A DNA stretch of 25,672 bases, from contig JBEQLC010000001.1 in assembly GCA_040326175.1 (NCBI GenBank), forward strand, positions 1 to 25,672. The letters run 5' to 3'. The position numbers were made by a program, and so were the translations under genes. The notes under the pieces were generated by a model, which did not search any database, had not been told where the DNA came from, and worked only from the letters and a program-made list of their open reading frames with translations. Positions 1-25,432 of the stretch are shown one piece after another; position 1 is the stretch's first letter; every line of letters begins with the position of its first letter. The DNA is from Desulfobacteria bacterium. Lineage in GTDB: Bacteria; Desulfobacterota; Desulfobacteria; Desulfobacterales; C00003060.

Positions 1-7
1 AACTGAA

Positions 8-227
8 ATGCCTAAAGTGAGCTAAAGTGTCTAAATAAAGTGCCTAAAGTGAACTAAAGTGCCTAAAGTTAAAAGAAGAAAAACAATGTCTGTAAAAAGC
101 TAATAATTCCAAAAGAAGAGTGGATAGAATGCCTCAAGCTAAAGTAATAAACACAGGTTTTACAAGGGATTTCCTCAAGTTCTTAACTTTAGCTCACTTT
201 AGGCACTTTAGGCATTCTAGCTCACTT
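8..227. repeat. Inverted pair of 9-10 bp tandem arrays (unit GCCTAAAGT/GAGCTAAAGT) around an AT-rich spacer of about 110 bp
   Basis: Left arm 8-72 (ATGCCTAAAGT GAGCTAAAGT ... GCCTAAAGT GAACTAAAGT GCCTAAAGT TAA). Right arm 183-227 is the reverse complement of the same units (TTAA CTTTAGCTC ACTTTAGGC ACTTTAGGC ATTCTAGCTCACTT). The element may be cut by the window edge. Confidence 0.85.
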
Positions 228-1220
228 GAATTTTGCCTGGTGGTCTGAGCAAAGCCGCATCATCATGACCTCCAGGGCCAGCCGCGGATTTGAGTTCCGG
301 GAAATTGCGGCTTGTGCCGAGTTTACAACTTCTATCTTCCCCAACAGTTCACTGATTGATTGCCCCTTTGAGGCATGCTGTATCTTGTCCATTAAGTCCT
401 TATTAATGATCCTTTCAGGTGAAACTTTGTACATAAGAGCATCCCTGAACCAGGTCATAAGCATGTCCAAGGCATCGGCTAACCTGTCTTTATCACCGGA
501 TAAGGTCTCGGCGAAGGCGAAAACAGGCTGAATCGACCTCGTCGAAAAGGATGAAACTTGCTCAAGGAGGCTGGAGCGCCAAACGGTCCACTCTTCTCCG
601 TCTACTGACAGGGCCTTGCCCAGACTTCCCTTCGTCAACACAGCAAGTGTTGTTGCTGTTTCTATCTCCAGCCCGCGCAGATCCACAAGCACCTCAGCGA
701 CCTTGTCATACGGAATCGGCTTGAAAGCTACTTGCTGGCACCTGGAGACGATGGTGGGCAGAAGGTCCGTTGTCTGGGTTGCCGTGAGAATCAGCATAGT
801 GTGTCTGGGCGGTTCTTCTAAGATCTTTAGAATAGCATTCGATGCTTGAAGGTTCATTGCCTGTGCGTCATTGATGATTACGATCCGTTTGTTTCCCTCA
901 AGGGGCGCAAATCTGAGTTCCCTAGATACATCCCGGACTTGGTCGATCTTGATAAAGACACCGGCTGGTTTTACGGTGATCATGTCCGGGTGGGATCCAG
1001 AGATTATCTTGTGACATGAGAGACACTCTCCACAAGCCGACACGCCCGCAGGGCTCAAGCAGTTGAGGGCCATGCCCAGGGCTACAGCCGTTTTTCGTTT
1101 GCCGATTCCATCGATCCCTGTGAACAACAAGGAGTGAGGAATGCTCCCTTTTTGGAGCATTTGGGTCAAGAACCGGATGGGGCGATCCTGCCCAATGATA
1201 GATTCAAAGGTCATCCGCAT
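222..1220 (-). CDS. holB: DNA polymerase III delta-prime subunit
   Basis: Starts FESIIGQ; HSLLFTGIDGIGK P-loop-like segment; zinc motif C...ACGECLSC; SGSHPD; IKIDQVR; ANAILKILEEPP-type motif (SNAILKILEEPP); sensor TIVSRC. The start could be 1220 or 1214. Confidence 0.93.
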   Translation of the reverse strand: MRMTFESIIGQDRPIRFLTQMLQKGSIPHSLLFTGIDGIGKRKTAVALGMALNCLSPAGVSACGECLSCHKIISGSHPDMITVKPAGVFIKIDQVRDVSRELRFAPLEGNKRIVIINDAQAMNLQASNAILKILEEPPRHTMLILTATQTTDLLPTIVSRCQQVAFKPIPYDKVAEVLVDLRGLEIETATTLAVLTKGSLGKALSVDGEEWTVWRSSLLEQVSSFSTRSIQPVFAFAETLSGDKDRLADALDMLMTWFRDALMYKVSPERIINKDLMDKIQHASKGQSISELLGKIEVVNSAQAAISRNSNPRLALEVMMMRLCSDHQAKFK

Positions 1221-18128: not shown

Positions 18129-18831
18129 AGCCTTCAATGAGAGTTCCACACAGCTCTTGCCTGAGATTCGAGAGGATCTGAAGGCTTATCTCCAATATAT
18201 GAAAGGATTGGGATATCAGGGTGTGGTCTTGTCTGAAGACTCTGTCAGGATCCTGGAACGCTGGAATAAAGGCGGAGTAGCAGAGACTCTGGACACGATT
18301 CAGGTGGATCTTGGCGCCTGCGAGAGGTGCAAACTCCACAAGGGGCGCAAACATATCGTTTTTGGAGTCGGGAATCCAAGGGCAAAGCTGGCTTTTGTGG
18401 GTGAAGGGCCGGGCCACGAAGAAGACATACAGGGCGAGCCGTTTGTAGGCAAGGCGGGTCAACTGCTTACTAAGATACTTCGGGCGATCGGATTGACCCG
18501 GGAGGATGTCTATATTTGCAACATCATAAAGTGCAGGCCTCCGGGGAATCGGAATCCTGAACCGGACGAGATCGCCGCGTGCATTCCTTTTCTCCGAAGA
18601 CAGCTGAGAGCTATAGGACCTGGGCTGATATGTGCCCTGGGCACCTTTGCGGCCCAAACACTTCTGGCGACCAAAACGCCGATATCTCGGTTGCGGGGCA
18701 ACTTCTATACTTATGAAGGTATTCATCTCCTTCCCACATATCACCCAGCTTTTCTTCTCCGAAATCCCGCAAAGAAGGCCGACGTGTGGGAAGATATGCA
18801 GAAGCTTCAGGAGGCATATGAAAAGACTTAG
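18112..18831 (+). CDS. Family 4 (Fe-S cluster) uracil-DNA glycosylase
   Basis: [40 protein letters not shown] and TYHPAFLLR. Start at ATG 18112, overlapping the coaBC end. Confidence 0.94.
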
Positions 18832-20254
18832 AAACCTTTACAAAGAATCCCCTTTTGTCCAATCTCTGCGTCAGACTCAGATTTTGGTCCTCAAAATACT
18901 AAAAGTATTCCTGCGGCCAAAATTTTCATCTTCCTTGACCTTGAACAAAATTGAACACCTTGTAAAGGTTTCTCCTGGACATGCACTTGCTGTATTTGCA
19001 TTGGCAGGGGTGCTGGTCTTTGCCTTTCCCCTGGCAGCCCAGGCTGCCAAAGGAGAGGTCTATGTGGTTGAAGTTTCTGGTACGATCAACCCGGGCTTGG
19101 CAGAGTATGTGATAAGAAACATTGAAAAGGCTGATGGGGAGGAAGCTGCCTGTCTCGTTATGCAGCTTGATACCCCTGGTGGGCTGGGCCTATCCATGCG
19201 TTCAATCGTCATGGCCATGCTGGCCTCGAAGATCCCTGTGGTCGTCTATGTATCGCCGAGCGGGGCACGAGCAGCCTCTGCCGGTGTGATGATCACCCTT
19301 GCGGCTGATATTGCGGCCATGGCTCCCGGCACCAATATTGGTGCGGCCCATCCGGTCAACCTCGGCCAAAAGGAGATGGACAAGACCATGGCCGAGAAGG
19401 TGGTCAACGACATGGTGGCCTACACCAAAAGCATTTCAGAAAAACGGGGTCGCAACAGCGAATGGGCGGAAAAGTCGATTCGGGAAAGTGTTTCCGTCAC
19501 AGAAAAGGAGGCCTTGGAACTCAAGGTTATTGACCTCATTGCTGAGGATTTGGACGATCTCCTCGAGAAGATCGATGGTCGAGAACTCAAGGAAAAGGGA
19601 ATTCTTCACACCAAAGGGGTTAAACGGGTGGTCCTTACTGAAAGCTTCAGGGACAAGATCCTTAAGACCATCAGCGACCCCAACATTGCGTATTTGCTCA
19701 TGATGATCGGTATGGCCGGGCTCTATTTTGAACTATCCCACCCCGGAACGATCTTCCCGGGGGTTATCGGCGCCATCTCTCTGATTCTGGCCTTCTTTGC
19801 ATTTCAAACACTGCCGGTCAACTATGCTGGAATCTTGCTGATCGCGGTTGCCCTCATCCTCTTCATCCTCGAGATGAAGGTGACCAGCTACGGTCTTCTG
19901 AGCCTGGGCGGCATCATCTCCCTCTTTTTGGGGTCCTTGATGCTGTTCCAGGGGCCCGGGCCCGAGATGCGCCTTTCCTGGCGTGTACTGATTTCCACGG
20001 TTGTCATGGTTTCCGGGTTCTTTGTTGTCGTGGCCGGCCTTGTGTTTCGTTCCCAGATATCCAAACCCCGAACGGGAGACAAAGGGTTGATTGGGGAGGT
20101 TGGCGTGGTCAGGGAAAGGCTTGCACCTGGAGGCAAAGTCTTTGTCCATGGGGAGCTTTGGAACGCCGAGGCTCGGGAGCCGATCGAGGCAGGCGCCAAG
20201 GTCCGCGTCACAGGTGTGGATAAGCTGGTTTTGAGAGTCGAGGAAGTTCGGTAG
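18818..20254 (+). CDS. nfeD: Long-form NfeD (ClpP-like serine protease domain + membrane domain + OB-fold)
   Basis: LDTPGG, VYVSPSGARAASAG, AMAPGTNIGAAHPV, ELSHPG, GKVFVHGELWNA. ATG 18818 follows GGAGG. The N-terminus is interrupted in frame by a MITE. Confidence 0.9.
   Translation: MKRLRNLYKESPFVQSLRQTQILVLKILKVFLRPKFSSSLTLNKIEHLVKVSPGHALAVFALAGVLVFAFPLAAQAAKGEVYVVEVSGTINPGLAEYVIRNIEKADGEEAACLVMQLDTPGGLGLSMRSIVMAMLASKIPVVVYVSPSGARAASAGVMITLAADIAAMAPGTNIGAAHPVNLGQKEMDKTMAEKVVNDMVAYTKSISEKRGRNSEWAEKSIRESVSVTEKEALELKVIDLIAEDLDDLLEKIDGRELKEKGILHTKGVKRVVLTESFRDKILKTISDPNIAYLLMMIGMAGLYFELSHPGTIFPGVIGAISLILAFFAFQTLPVNYAGILLIAVALILFILEMKVTSYGLLSLGGIISLFLGSLMLFQGPGPEMRLSWRVLISTVVMVSGFFVVVAGLVFRSQISKPRTGDKGLIGEVGVVRERLAPGGKVFVHGELWNAEAREPIEAGAKVRVTGVDKLVLRVEEVR
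18831..18972. mobile_element. 142-bp MITE inserted at the udg stop codon and inside the nfeD 5' end
   Basis: GAAACCTTTACAA (18831-18843) pairs perfectly with TTGTAAAGGTTTC (18960-18972). Internal hairpin AATACT-AAA-AGTATT (18895-18909). Left flank TA, right flank TC. Confidence 0.85.
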
Positions 20255-20881: not shown

Positions 20882-23200
20882 ATGGCTGTAGAGATGGCGG
20901 AACAGCAGACAGCTGATAACAGCGTGGAGAGTGGCTCTGCTTCTGAAGAAGCCATGGGCCATCAAGAAAGGCTCTTGGGCATTACGAACCGTGTCCATGC
21001 CGCGAGCAACATCGATGAGATTCTGATTGATCTACAGGATGATATCATCAAATTGTTCGACGCTGAGCGGCTAACAATCTACGTGGTGGACGGAATAAAG
21101 AAGGACCTGGTGTCCCGGGTCAAGTCAGGAGATGAGATCAGCGAGATCCGCGTGCCCATCTCCACCACAAGTGTTGCAGGTTACTCAGCGTATAAGGGAC
21201 AGTTGATCAACATCAACAACGTCTACGATAAGAAAGAATTATCCGCGATCGATGAGAAGTTGAGTTTCGACAAAGCCTGGGACGAAAAAACCGGTTTTCG
21301 CACACGACAGGTCCTGGTGGCGCCTGTAAGCTTTCAAAAGTATCTCATGGGTGCCATCCAGCTTATCAATCGCAAGGATGGGACGGCCTTTAGCGAGAAG
21401 GACGAAGCGGCTGTCCAGGAACTATCCCAGACCCTTGGAATCGCCCTGTTCAATCAGAAGAGGATGGCAAAGGCCCGCCCGGGTAAATTTGATTATCTAA
21501 TAGAGAATGGGCTCGTAACACAAAAGGAGTTGGACAAGGCGATACTGGAGGCCCGGAAGACCAGGCAGGACATTGAAGCACTCCTGATGAAAGCCTATAA
21601 GATTTCCAAGAAAGACATCGGGCAGGCTTTGAGCCACTACTACAGGGTCCCATTTGTTGAGTATAACGAGCGGGTTCCAATTCCGGGTGATCTTCTGGCC
21701 GGTCTGAAGGTACCGTTCATGAAGCAGAACAATTGGGTTCCGATTGGACAGGATCAAGCAGGCCAAAGAGTTATTATTGCGATTGACAATCCATACCATC
21801 TCCAAAAAGTAGATATGATCAAGCCGCTCTTTCCCGGGAAGGACATTATATTCCATGTAGCGCTTGTAGAAGACATCGAAAGTTTTCTCACCCTCTTCTA
21901 CCAGGACGAAAAGGAACTGGGCTCTATTGAAGATATCCTCGGGCAGTTGGAGGCAGAGGAGGATGAGATTGTAGAGGCGGAAAAGGGTGTGACCGAAGAG
22001 GACAGCGCCATCGTCCAAATGGTTAACAAGATGATTTTGGATGCCTATGAGCGGAATGCCTCAGATATTCACGTCGAACCTTATCCTGGGAAGAAACATA
22101 CGGAAGTGCGGTTCAGGGTTGACGGTGCATGCCAGCTTTATCAGACCGTTCCGTACAATTATCGTGCGGCAGTCGTTTCCCGCCTCAAGATTATGGCCAA
22201 TCTGGACATTGCTGAGCGTCGCAAGCCACAGGACGGCAAGATAGATTTCAAAAAGTACGGTGGAAAGGCAATTGAACTCCGAGTTGCCACGGTACCGACA
22301 GCGGGCGGCATGGAAGATGTTGTGCTGCGTCTATTACAGGCAGGTGAGCCTATACCGCTCAGTAAGATGGGATTTTCACAGGTGAATTATGATAACTTCC
22401 TAAGCGTAATTACCACCCCATACGGGCTCATCTTTGTGTGCGGGCCTACCGGGTCTGGAAAGACCACAACTCTGCATTCGGCCCTTGCCTACATCAACAA
22501 ACCTGACCTCAAGATCTGGACGGCTGAAGACCCTGTGGAGATCACTCAAGTGGGCCTCAGGCAAGTTCAGACTCTGCACAAGATAGGTTTTGATTTTGCC
22601 ACTGCCATGCGAGCGTTCTTGAGGGCTGACCCGGACGTCATTATGGTCGGTGAGATGCGTGACAAAGAGACCACGCATATTGGTATCGAGGCCTCACTTA
22701 CCGGCCACTTGGTCTTTTCCACCCTGCATACAAACAGCGCTCCTGAGAGCATTACACGACTCCTGGACATGGGTATGGATCCCTTCAACTTTGCAGATGC
22801 CATACTTTGTATCCTTGCCCAGCGGCTGGTTCGTACGCTTTGCAAAGAGTGTAAGAAGGAGTACAATCCTTCTCAAGAAGAATATGATGAGCTGGTTCGG
22901 GAGTATGGCCCGAAAGCTTTTGAAAAACTGAACATGCCCTATTCAGATGACATAATGCTATGCAAAAGCGTAGGTTGTAATGCATGCAGCAATACCGGGT
23001 ATCGGGGTCGTATGGGTATTCATGAGCTCTTAATGGGGACCGACGAGATGAAGAGGCTGATCCAGGATAAGGCCCAGATGGAATTCATTCGGGAGCAGGC
23101 TGTCGAGGATGGGATGAGGACACTGAAACAGGACGGTATTGAGAAGGTCTTTGCCGGCCACACCGACCTGAAAGAGGTCCGGAAAGTTTGTATAAGATAA
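20882..23200 (+). CDS. GspE/PulE/PilB-family secretion or pilus-assembly ATPase with N-terminal GAF domain
   Basis: GAF domain at about aa 25-195; Walker A GPTGSGKTT; Asp box TAEDPVE; Walker B DPDVIMVGEMRD; His box TGHLVFSTLHTN; zinc CKEC...CNAC. Confidence 0.93.
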   Translation: MAVEMAEQQTADNSVESGSASEEAMGHQERLLGITNRVHAASNIDEILIDLQDDIIKLFDAERLTIYVVDGIKKDLVSRVKSGDEISEIRVPISTTSVAGYSAYKGQLININNVYDKKELSAIDEKLSFDKAWDEKTGFRTRQVLVAPVSFQKYLMGAIQLINRKDGTAFSEKDEAAVQELSQTLGIALFNQKRMAKARPGKFDYLIENGLVTQKELDKAILEARKTRQDIEALLMKAYKISKKDIGQALSHYYRVPFVEYNERVPIPGDLLAGLKVPFMKQNNWVPIGQDQAGQRVIIAIDNPYHLQKVDMIKPLFPGKDIIFHVALVEDIESFLTLFYQDEKELGSIEDILGQLEAEEDEIVEAEKGVTEEDSAIVQMVNKMILDAYERNASDIHVEPYPGKKHTEVRFRVDGACQLYQTVPYNYRAAVVSRLKIMANLDIAERRKPQDGKIDFKKYGGKAIELRVATVPTAGGMEDVVLRLLQAGEPIPLSKMGFSQVNYDNFLSVITTPYGLIFVCGPTGSGKTTTLHSALAYINKPDLKIWTAEDPVEITQVGLRQVQTLHKIGFDFATAMRAFLRADPDVIMVGEMRDKETTHIGIEASLTGHLVFSTLHTNSAPESITRLLDMGMDPFNFADAILCILAQRLVRTLCKECKKEYNPSQEEYDELVREYGPKAFEKLNMPYSDDIMLCKSVGCNACSNTGYRGRMGIHELLMGTDEMKRLIQDKAQMEFIREQAVEDGMRTLKQDGIEKVFAGHTDLKEVRKVCIR

Positions 23201-23356
23201 CATCTATGTTGTGCGAGTTATAAGATTTAGGAGTATTCTAGTAGCTTCCAGTTTTTCCCTACCTAAGGAAAACCCGAAATCTGAATATCGACACGAAGTG
23301 CATTTTCTCAAGCCGTAAGTCACAACTTCGCGCCAAACAATTTTCGAGACTTCAAC

Positions 23357-23438
23357 GACCAAAATCTGAGTCTAACGCAGGCACTTTAGTGAAGCTTTGG
23401 CGCTGATTGGGCAAAAGAGGGCGTTTTGGAAAGGTCTC
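23357..23438 (-). mobile_element. Reversed half copy of the 18831-18972 MITE, overlapping the uvrB RBS and start codon
   Basis: 23357-23380 matches the reverse complement of 18866-18889 at 23/24. After an insert of about 24 bp, 23405-23438 matches the reverse complement of 18831-18864 at 26/34. Confidence 0.85.
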
Positions 23439-25432
23439 AGTCTCCCTTTAAACTGATTTCAAGCTTCTCGCCTAAAGGCGACCAGCCGAGAGCCATTGAA
23501 GCGTTAAGTCAGGGGGTCAGAGAGGGCCTCCGTAATCAGGTGCTTCTGGGTGTGACCGGTTCGGGCAAGACCTTTACCATGGCCCACGTAATCGCCCTGT
23601 TGGACAAACCCACCCTTGTAATCGCTCCAAACAAGACTTTGGCCGCCCAACTCTACGAAGAATTCAAGAACTTCTTTCCGGACAATGCCGTCGAGTATTT
23701 TGTCAGCTACTATGACTACTACCAGCCTGAGGCCTACCTGCCGGTCACCGACACCTACATTGAAAAAGATGCCTCGATAAATGAAATGATCGATAGATTG
23801 CGACATTCTGCCACACGGTCTGTTATGGCCCGGAGAGACGTGATTGTGGTGGCGAGCGTATCCTGCATCTTTGGTCTGGGTGCTCCTGAAGATTACCTGG
23901 AGATGTGCCTCGAACTCAAGCAAGGCACCGACTTTGTGCGGGACTCCATGTTAAGGCGTCTGGTGGCAATGCAGTATAACAGAAACGACTATGATTTCCA
24001 TCGTGATACCTTCCGGGTGAGGGGAGACAGGGTTGAGATTTTCCCGGCTTATGAGGACGACAAGGCTGTCCGCGTGGAGTTTTTTGGTGACACGATCGAG
24101 CACATATATGAAATCGACCCATTACTGGGTAAGGTGGTAAGGCCGCTTAAGCGGGTGATCATCTATCCGGCCACGCATTACGTCACCTCAAGGGTCACTT
24201 TGAATAATGCTGTGAAATCGATAAAGGAAGAACTCAAAGAGCGCATACCATACTTCAGAGATGCCAAGAAATGGATTGAGGCCCAGCGGATCGAGGAGCG
24301 GACCGATTTTGATCTGGAGATGATGCGGGAGCTGGGATACTGCCAGGGGATCGAAAACTATTCACGCCATTTGACCGGAAGAAAGCCAGGCGACCCTCCG
24401 CCGACCCTGCTCGAGTATTTCCCTGAGGATTTTCTCCTATTTGTTGATGAAAGTCATATAGCGGTTCCCCAGCTAAGGGGTATGTACCGCGGGGATCGGT
24501 CTCGAAAGGAGACACTCGTCGAATATGGATTCAGGCTTCCTTCGGCCCTGGACAACAGGCCCCTTGCCTTTGAGGAGTTCACAGAGAAGATATTGCAGGT
24601 GATCTATGTGTCGGCCACACCGAGCGACTACGAGATTGAGATGGCCGGAGGACAGGTCGTTGAGCAGATCATCCGTCCCACAGGGCTTATTGATCCCAGC
24701 ATTGTGGTGAAGCCTGCCGGGGGCCAGGTGGATGATCTCCTTGATGAGATCAGGGCCCGCGAAGAGCGCAAGGAGAGGGTGCTTGTGACAACCCTGACCA
24801 AACGGATGGCAGAGGATCTGACCGATTATTACAGCGATCTGGGGGTCAAGGTCCGGTATCTTCATTCTGATATTACTACCATGGAACGAGTCGACATAAT
24901 CAGGGATCTGCGTCTGGGAGTCTTTGATGTACTAATAGGGATTAACCTGCTCAGGGAGGGCCTGGACCTGCCCGAGGTCAGCCTGGTAGCCATATTGGAC
25001 GCTGACAAAGAGGGGTTTCTCCGCTCGGAACGCTCCTTGATCCAGACGTGCGGCCGTGCGGCCAGAAATCTCTTTGGCACGGTAATCTTTTACGCCGATC
25101 GTGTTACTCGGTCTATGCAGAAGGCTATTGATGAGACGAATCGGCGGCGAAGGCTTCAGACGGCATATAACAAGAAGCACGGGATTACCCCTGAGACCAT
25201 ACAAAAAGAGATTACGAGCATACTCAGCTCGGTCTATGAGGCAGACTACGTTACAGCACGGAAGGTCTCAGAACGGGCTGCTGAGTTTAGCTCTGTGGAC
25301 GATCTGGAAAATATCATTCAGGGACTCGAGTCTGAAATGAAAGAGGCCGTCAAGGAATTGGCTTTTGAGAGGGCAGCAGAGCTAAGGGATCGGATCAAAG
25401 AGCTTCGAGAGCTCGACTTGGATTTGAGATGA
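23426..25432 (+). CDS. uvrB: Excinuclease ABC subunit B
   Basis: [79 protein letters not shown] and a C-terminal UVR domain ([11 protein letters not shown]). TTG start. Confidence 0.98.

What the first reader, a model, noticed from the sequence alone, without database searches (positions are those of the whole stretch)
23357..23450. uvrB ribosome-binding site and its only available start codon lie inside a MITE end
Seen: 23357-23438 is a reversed half of the udg/nfeD MITE (23/24 and 26/34 matches either side of an insert of about 24 bp). The GAGG (23417-23420) and TTG (23426) fall within this terminal repeat region. An in-frame TGA at 23390 blocks upstream starts, and no ATG, GTG or TTG lies between 23426 and the conserved [13 protein letters not shown]. 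Base differences from the other copy create both the in-frame TTG context and the GAG(G) spacing. Inference: a repair gene depends on a domesticated mobile-element end for translation initiation.
Basis: partly seen in the sequence, partly recalled or inferred. Interest (0 to 1): 0.75.

Follow-up and report, generated by a model that had tools for sequence, protein, structure and literature searches.

The report
MITE end supplies uvrB start codon
In this marine-sediment sulfate-reducer relative, the DNA-repair gene uvrB lost its original start codon when a small mobile repeat inserted, and it now most likely starts at a TTG, preceded by a ribosome-binding site, inside that repeat's end; the case is well supported by comparison but is of a kind already described.

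Summary
uvrB (23426-25432) has one usable start, TTG 23426. GAGG lies 5 nt upstream and an in-frame TGA lies at 23390. Positions 23357-23438 are the right-hand ~59 nt of a real MITE plus a 24-nt module.

The family is a 142-bp element with IS5-type terminal repeats and a 5-bp target duplication. It is abundant in Desulfobacterales MAGs. The uvrB copy matches the family consensus end at 31/33.

In 23 of 27 relatives uvrB starts exactly three codons before the conserved Phe. Here, and in two other species of the genus (G036, G005), that codon is CAG, and its C is the last base of the MITE. All three keep GAGG-N5-TTG in frame.

uvrB stays under strong purifying selection (dN/dS 0.08-0.13). uvrA and uvrC are intact. 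The junction recurs in independent metagenome contigs.

Its side claim is not: the TTG and its spacing belong to the family consensus, and GAGG is a subfamily variant.

Close precedents exist (MITEAba12 "MQQS" 5' fusions, Neisseria REP2), so this is a new member of a known kind. No N-terminal protein or ribosome data exist. Earlier notes of this scan concern this same window only, not other DNA.

The parts
23426..25432 (+). uvrB coding sequence (668 aa), including a MITE-encoded N-terminal extension
   Evidence: This is the only long ORF here. It scores 1090 bits against NCBIfam NF003673, cut-off 743, with residue 8 aligned to profile position 2. PDB UvrB chains align from residues 5-7 onward, where the chains have 3-4 residues before the Phe.
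23426..23428 (+). TTG, the only available start codon; it lies in the MITE terminal repeat at consensus positions 130-132
   Evidence: TTG (95) or ATG (28) stands at this position in 123 of 124 family ends that match the search pattern.
23417..23420 (+). GAGG Shine-Dalgarno core, 5 nt upstream of the TTG, inside the MITE end
   Evidence: GAGG-to-ATG spacing in this genome peaks at 5-8 nt, and SD-like motifs occur upstream of 37% of long ORFs against 12% in a control position.
23406..23438 (-). Right terminal repeat region of the MITE (consensus positions 110-142); the element's last base is C at 23438
   Evidence: It matches the 142-bp consensus at 31/33 and copies C222 and C31 at 30/33. Metagenome contigs from other copies diverge at 23438-23440 (table 7).
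23381..23405 (.). 24-nt module nested in the MITE; it marks the ~166-bp subfamily and contains the in-frame TGA at 23390
   Evidence: The same module sits at the same site in copies L126, L131, L168, L110, L149 and L162 and in own-genome copy C317. It is absent from the orthologous G005 copy. G036 has a further 73-nt insertion inside it.
23357..23380 (-). MITE internal segment (consensus positions 84-107)
   Evidence: It matches 18866-18889 at 23/24 in inverted orientation and the consensus at 19/24.
23246..23356 (.). Member of a second dispersed repeat family that takes the place of the missing left part of the MITE
   Evidence: It matches C345, C119, C55, C300, C210, C323, C88 and C350 in the own genome and many genomes of the genus.
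23438..23440 (+). CAG codon at the position of the ancestral uvrB start codon
   Evidence: In 23 of 27 relatives this codon is ATG, TTG or GTG. Only G000, G036 and G005 have CAG.
23439..23443 (+). AGTCT, the 5 nt flanking the MITE end; presumed right copy of the target duplication
   Evidence: The family makes 5-bp duplications. The left copy cannot be checked because the left end of this copy is gone.
18830..18973 (+).
20882..23200 (+). Upstream PilB/GspE-like ATPase gene; no terminator is predicted between it and uvrB

Best explanation
A copy of a 142/166-bp MITE with IS5-type terminal repeats inserted at the 5' edge of uvrB in an ancestor of this genome. The insertion removed the ancestral start codon: its position is now CAG, and the C is the element's last base. 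The right terminal repeat of the family natively reads outward as a purine run, five bases, then TTG. This TTG ended up in frame with uvrB. Ribosomes most likely bind GAGG (23417-23420) and start at TTG 23426. The product is a UvrB whose first four residues (M-E-R-S) are encoded by the element and which is four residues longer than in relatives. The rest of the element has since decayed and been overwritten by other repeats, so this copy can no longer move. Shown: the MITE origin of the sequence, the loss of the old start, the absence of any other start, retention in three species, and purifying selection on uvrB. Inferred: actual initiation at the TTG, and the source of the transcript, possibly read-through from the pilB-like gene.
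For: The sequence features are. The family is defined by a 142-bp consensus, terminal repeats and a 5-bp target duplication. The duplication is perfect in 25 of 54 copies and has at most one mismatch in 41 of 54, against 2 of 54 in a shifted control. The uvrB copy matches the consensus end at 31/33. In 23 of 27 relatives ATG, TTG or GTG stands exactly three codons before the Phe. G000, G036 and G005 instead have CAG preceded by the MITE end, with GAGG and TTG conserved. dN/dS of uvrB is 0.077 (G000-G005, dS 0.74) and 0.131 (G000-G036), similar to pairs that include element-free genomes. uvrA and uvrC are intact in the genome. The GAGG spacing of 5 nt falls in the genome's own preferred range. 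The junction is spanned by contigs of two independent marine-sediment metagenomes with 0 and 1 differences.
Against: There are no protein or ribosome-profiling data, so the start is inferred by exclusion. TTG is a weak start codon, although at least seven relatives also use TTG for uvrB. The initiation region is not more conserved between G000 and G005 (37/41) than the neighbouring repeat segment (97/111), so selection on it specifically is not shown. No promoter was found. The genomes carrying the element do not form a clade in the local tree.
Confidence: 0.85

Rival explanations
1. The insertion silenced uvrB: the gene is not translated, or only at trace level, and is on its way to becoming a pseudogene.
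For: The ancestral start and its GGAG site are gone. TTG is a weak start. No expression data of value were obtained.
Against: The 668-codon frame is intact in three species that have diverged to dS 0.74, with dN/dS of 0.08-0.13, as in comparisons that include element-free genomes. uvrA and uvrC are intact. The organism with this junction is common in marine sediments.
Confidence: 0.05
2. Active domestication: mutations specific to this copy created the TTG and the GAGG spacing after insertion.
For: Against the udg/nfeD copy the bases do differ. GGGG to GAGG improves pairing with the anti-SD, and GAGG is rare order-wide, in 6 of 124 ends.
Against: The TTG and the 5-nt spacer GCGTT are exactly the family consensus. 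The GAGG variant with the same spacing occurs in at least four other copies in this genome, which lie next to no gene start.
Confidence: 0.07
3. The similarity reflects a conserved regulatory motif of uvrB, or an assembly chimera at a repeat, not a mobile-element insertion.
For: MAG contigs often break or mis-join at repeats. Depth at 23360-23443 is inflated by other copies.
Against: Relatives lack the sequence upstream of uvrB. The sequence is the end of an element with target duplications and empty sites. The same junction occurs in three separately assembled genomes and in contigs of two other studies that span it by more than 31 nt on each side.
Confidence: 0.02

Closest known systems
MITEAba12 5' gene fusions in Acinetobacter (Adams and Brown 2019, PMC6382973)
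   Same: MITEAba12 is described there as a non-autonomous IS-derived element named after ISAba12 (assignment of ISAba12 to the IS5 family is from my own knowledge). Its terminal repeat, read outward, supplies the start codon and the first four residues (MQQS) of the adjacent gene. Here the consensus reads M/L-Q-R-S and the uvrB copy reads M-E-R-S.
   Different: Those fusions were noted from annotation ('could create fusions'), without evidence that the native start was lost or that the arrangement persisted. Here comparison shows loss of the ancestral start, no alternative start, retention in three species and purifying selection. The element family is also different.
Neisseria REP2 repeats and Borrelia IR sequences (reviewed by Delihas 2011, PMC3184786)
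   Same: [quoted passage not shown]
   Different: REP2 has no terminal inverted repeats and also supplies a promoter. Here the donor is a classical MITE with terminal repeats and a target duplication, and no promoter was detected.
5' and 3' extensions and in-frame insertions by RUP/BOX/SPRITE and Rickettsia palindromic elements (cited in PMC3184786)
   Same: Small repeats are fused in frame with chromosomal ORFs, including 5' extensions. The same MITE family does this inside nfeD in this window.
   Different: In the uvrB case the element is not an internal passenger. It replaces the initiation signals.
ISNme1 and ISPg1-type IS5-family elements and their MITEs (ATR, BrickBuilt; PMC4596501)
   Same: The outermost 15 nt of the right terminal repeat equal the ISNme1 right repeat listed in Table 2 of that paper, and the left end matches its first 10 nt.
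   Different: No autonomous element with these ends was found in this genome or among the 15 best transposase loci of the genus. The internal sequence is unrelated as far as checked.

Membership tests
Bacterial MITE (non-autonomous element with IS5-type ends) | Terminal inverted repeats | tested here: met
   The consensus ends are inverted copies over the first 10 nt, followed by an A-rich stretch. The udg/nfeD copy has 33-nt arms at 79% (I4).
Bacterial MITE (non-autonomous element with IS5-type ends) | Small size with no transposase gene | tested here: met
   The canonical length is 142 bp in 55 copies, with variants of 165-168 bp and longer.
Bacterial MITE (non-autonomous element with IS5-type ends) | Target-site duplication | tested here: met
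   The family makes a 5-bp duplication: perfect in 25 of 54 copies and with at most one mismatch in 41 of 54, against 2 of 54 in a shifted control. For the uvrB copy itself this cannot be checked, because the left end is missing.
Bacterial MITE (non-autonomous element with IS5-type ends) | Many dispersed copies, with filled and empty orthologous sites | tested here: met
   There are about 12 copies or fragments in this 83%-complete MAG. The nfeD site is filled in G000, G001 and G005 and empty in G036. The uvrB site is filled in G000, G036 and G005 and lacks the element in the other relatives examined.
Bacterial MITE (non-autonomous element with IS5-type ends) | Autonomous partner IS with the same ends | tested here: inconclusive
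   The own MAG has no DDE_Tnp_1 hit. The 15 best DDE_Tnp_1 loci of the genus lack these ends. The identity to the ISNme1 ends comes from the literature only.
UvrB (NCBIfam NF003673 / TIGR00631) | Full-length match above the curated cut-off | tested here: met
   1090 bits against a cut-off of 743, with residues 8-662 covering profile positions 2-652 of 653.
Repeat-borne translation start (MITEAba12-type 5' fusion, REP2-type) | The element end carries an SD-like site and a start codon reading outward, in frame with the host ORF | tested here: met
Repeat-borne translation start (MITEAba12-type 5' fusion, REP2-type) | The host gene has no other usable start and its ancestral start is lost | tested here: met
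   In nine other ORFs fused to this end in other genomes, an alternative start lies 6-15 codons downstream.
Repeat-borne translation start (MITEAba12-type 5' fusion, REP2-type) | Initiation at the element's start codon shown experimentally | not testable with these tools
   Only contigs of RNA-labelled runs were available, and they cannot show starts or strand.

The most novel reading that the evidence does not exclude
The right terminal repeat of this MITE family may act as a portable translation-initiation cassette: a purine run, five bases, then TTG or ATG reading outward. This would let the element land in the A/T-rich RBS-to-start region of genes without killing them. It would explain why about one in ten right ends in Desulfobacterales genomes read in frame into an ORF of 100 codons or more. 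On this reading uvrB is the clearest of many genes whose initiation has been rewired by the family.
Probability: 0.15. Interest if true: 0.6.

Novelty: new member of a known kind. Interest (0 to 1): 0.4.

Why it matters
This is a clean, comparatively dated example of a non-coding mobile element replacing the translation-initiation signals of a conserved core repair gene rather than merely sitting near it. It shows how an insertion into a start codon can be survivable when the element's end happens to carry an SD-like site and an in-frame start. It also has practical value for annotation. Gene callers and curators of Desulfobacterales MAGs will meet this element next to gene starts often, and its outward-reading M/L-Q-R-S can create or mask true N-termini. 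It does not reveal a new mechanism.

Tried and rejected
- Rfam scan of the whole window: no match.
- Promoter and terminator scan of 23000-23600: no plus-strand promoter and no terminator.
- RNA fold of 23330-23470: less stable than shuffles (z +1.6), so there is no structure around the start.
- Expression: only Logan contigs of RNA-labelled runs were available. One 151-nt contig covers 23270-23420 and one covers 23531-23750. Neither bridges the start, and they cannot show strand or ends. I draw nothing from them.
- Extra conservation of the SD/TTG segment between G000 and G005: not shown. The figures are 37/41 against 97/111 in the adjacent repeat.
- A single clean clade of element-bearing genomes: rejected. 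The local tree is ((G000,G036),(G001,G005)), and the AU test rejects G000+G036+G005 at p 4e-4.
The duplication is 5 bp of variable, A/T-rich sequence.
- Autonomous IS partner: not found.
- Other genes dependent on the element's start: in the own genome only uvrB reads on from a MITE end. In other genomes all nine fused ORFs checked keep a nearby alternative start.

Full report
**1. Observation**

uvrB is the ORF 23426-25432. It is a full-length UvrB: 1090 bits against NCBIfam NF003673, cut-off 743. Residue 8, the conserved Phe of F-K-L, aligns to profile position 2.

Reading the DNA confirms each stated feature:
- TTG at 23426.
- GAGG at 23417-23420, five bases upstream of the TTG.
- An in-frame TGA at 23390.
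- No other ATG, GTG or TTG, and no near-cognate start, in frame before the Phe codon at 23447.

The next in-frame GTG lies about 38 codons into the gene, just before the Walker A motif.

The repeat tool finds the 23/24 inverted match between 18866-18889 and 23357-23380 (I9). The 26/34 terminal match is visible.

**2. What the repeat is**

The udg/nfeD element (18830-18973) is one member of a dispersed family. The own genome is an 83%-complete MAG of 368 contigs, and the window is its contig C111. It holds near-full copies on C302, C68, C310, C222 and C317 and fragments on several other contigs.

Nearly all came from MAGs labelled Desulfobacterales, Desulfobacteraceae or related deltaproteobacterial names, from marine sediment and seeps.

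From these copies the canonical element has the following properties:
- It is 142 bp long and highly conserved.
- It has terminal inverted repeats.
- It makes a 5-bp target duplication. The duplication is perfect in 25 of 54 copies and has at most one mismatch in 41 of 54. A control shifted by 6 nt gives 2 of 54.

Filled and empty orthologous sites exist. The nfeD site is filled in G000, G001 and G005 and empty in G036.

The outermost 15 nt of the right end equal the right terminal repeat of the IS5-family element ISNme1, as listed in Table 2 of PMC4596501. No autonomous partner was found in this genome or among the 15 best DDE_Tnp_1 loci of the genus. The element is therefore a genuine MITE.

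**3. Anatomy upstream of uvrB**

| Window positions | Content | Evidence |
|---|---|---|
| 23406-23438 | MITE consensus positions 110-142, 31/33 match | |
| 23381-23405 | ~24-nt module | |
| 23357-23380 | MITE consensus positions 84-107, 19/24 match | |
| 23246-23356 | second dispersed repeat family | |

The ~24-nt module occurs at the same site in many other copies, which form a subfamily of about 166 bp. The left ~83 nt of the MITE are absent, and the second repeat family stands in their place. The copy is thus a decayed solo end.

The element's last base is C at 23438. Metagenome contigs from other copies diverge at 23438-23440, which marks the same boundary.

**4. The start codon was replaced**

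I compared uvrB 5' regions in 27 relatives, 15 from the same genus and 12 from other families of the order. In 23 of them ATG, TTG or GTG stands exactly three codons before the Phe, giving N-termini such as M-S-A-F, L-S-A-F, V-S-G-F and M-S-P-F.

Three genomes are different: the own genome, its close sister G036 (97% nt identity) and G005. In these:
- The codon at that position is CAG.
- The CAG is preceded by the MITE end.
- GAGG, the 5-nt spacer and the in-frame TTG are all kept.
- The N-terminus reads M-E-R-S-Q-S-P/A-F.

G005 also has an in-frame stop upstream and no alternative start. The whole intergenic region of G000 and G005 is orthologous. G001 and G017 have an unrelated intergenic region ending in ATG-TCC-GCC-TTT.

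**5. The gene still works**

| Pair | dN/dS | Note |
|---|---|---|
| G000-G005 | 0.077 | dS 0.74 |
| G000-G036 | 0.131 | |
| Pairs that include element-free genomes | 0.077-0.137 | |

uvrA (C66) and uvrC (C311) are intact.

The genome uses Shine-Dalgarno sites. SD-like motifs occur upstream of 37% of long ORFs, against 12% at a control position. The GAGG-to-start spacing peaks at 5-8 nt, and the uvrB spacing is 5 nt. At least seven relatives also start uvrB with TTG, so a TTG start is normal for this gene in this genus.

**6. Not an assembly artefact**

The junction occurs in three separately assembled genomes. It is also spanned by contigs of two independent marine-sediment metagenomes:
- Run X3: 23403-23564, 0 differences.
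- Run X4: 23387-23728, 1 difference.

The stretch is held by runs from at least 11 studies.

**7. How the old start was lost**

The 5 nt after the element are AGTCT. Two routes fit the data.

(a) The target was TGTCT, that is, the last two bases of the start codon plus the Ser codon, as in G012, which reads ATG-TCT-CCC. The insertion then split the start codon and put the element's TTG in frame at once. A later T-to-A change gave CAG.

(b) The target was AGTCT, which stands immediately before the TG of the TTG start in G013 and G002. A later 5-nt deletion then removed the native start and brought the element's TTG into frame.

Both routes are inference. The left flank that could decide between them is gone.

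**8. What is not supported**

- The TTG and the spacer are the family consensus. TTG stands at this position in 95 and ATG in 28 of the 124 ends that match the pattern.
- GAGG instead of GGGG is rare order-wide (6 of 124 ends). It is, however, present in at least four other copies in this genome that adjoin no gene. There is no sign that the signals were created after insertion.
- The initiation segment is not better conserved than the neighbouring repeat.
- The element-bearing genomes are not a clade in the local tree, and the AU test rejects that grouping at p 4e-4. Recombination or retained polymorphism must be involved. This remains unexplained.

**9. Comparison with what is known**

- The closest precedent is MITEAba12. 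Its terminal repeat, read outward, gives the first four residues (MQQS) of adjacent genes in three Acinetobacter replicons (PMC6382973).
- 5' extensions by RUP/BOX-type repeats are reported in the same review.

The present case adds comparative proof of loss of the native start, exclusivity of the new start, persistence across species and purifying selection, in a core repair gene and in a MITE family for which my literature searches found no description. It is a new member of a known kind.

**10. Limits**

Use of the TTG is inferred by exclusion and from selection on the gene. No proteomic, ribosome-profiling or usable transcript data were available. No promoter was identified.

Noticed in passing
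window 18819-19030; L065 (G036), L063 (G001), L064 (G005), L066 (G017): The udg/nfeD copy of the MITE (144 bp, or 48 codons) lies in frame between the nfeD start ATG at 18819 (SD caggagg) and the signal-peptide core. It is open in G000, G001 and G005. G036 has the empty site with a normal short signal peptide. G017 carries a different palindromic element in frame at the same spot.
   Followed up: partly
window 23246-23356; own genome C345:7859-7956, C119, C55, C300, C210, C323, C88, C350: A second dispersed repeat family, with a conserved core around CGACACGAAGTGC and TTCTCAAGCCGTCAGGCGCAACC, has at least 10 copies in this MAG and occurs in most genomes of the genus. Its nature is unknown.
   Followed up: partly
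window 23381-23405; L126, L131, L168, L110, L149, L156, L077: A ~24-nt module (GCACTTTAGTGAAGCTTTAGCGCT and variants) sits inside many MITE copies, usually at one site but also at other sites and in the opposite orientation. This suggests a tiny nested mobile or converting unit. It contains the GTGAAGCTT motif that another note links to IS605-like ends. G036 has a 73-nt insertion inside it.
   Followed up: partly
own genome C88:9462-9671, C368:15964-16206, C34:~730-946, C115:3308-3500: A sibling MITE family of about 210-240 bp has the same terminal repeats but a different interior. Its ends read outward as GGAG-TT-ATG-CAA-AGG-TCT-C.
   Followed up: no
L107, L126, L081, L174, L146, L114, L150, L115, L177 (other Desulfobacterales MAGs): Of 124 right ends, 13 read in frame from the element's TTG or ATG into ORFs of 100 codons or more, including an ABC transporter, class-II aldolase, PhoH, a lipid A acyltransferase and a methyltransferase. 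All nine checked keep another start 6-15 codons downstream. The element therefore often sits within about 40 nt of gene starts and may displace native ribosome-binding sites.
   Followed up: partly
L021-L023, L052 (pilB-like 3' end plus uvrB 5' end): The local tree is ((G000,G036),(G001,G005)) with 100/100 support, yet the MITE-bearing uvrB allele is in G000, G036 and G005, and the nfeD copy is in G000, G001 and G005. Each site has one odd genome out, which points to recombination or precise loss.
   Followed up: partly
L022 (G001) and L028 (G017), about 110 nt upstream of uvrB: The element-free relatives carry a long imperfect palindrome of gaaagc/gctttg-type units between the pilB-like gene and uvrB. 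Its last ~40 nt are nearly identical in G001 and G017, although the flanking genes are only about 77-85% identical.
   Followed up: no
window 1-230 and L067 (G007, upstream of nfeD): Arrays of CTAAAGTG-type 9/10-mers at the window start resemble the 24-nt module (I18). Similar arrays fill the udg/nfeD spacer of G007.
   Followed up: no
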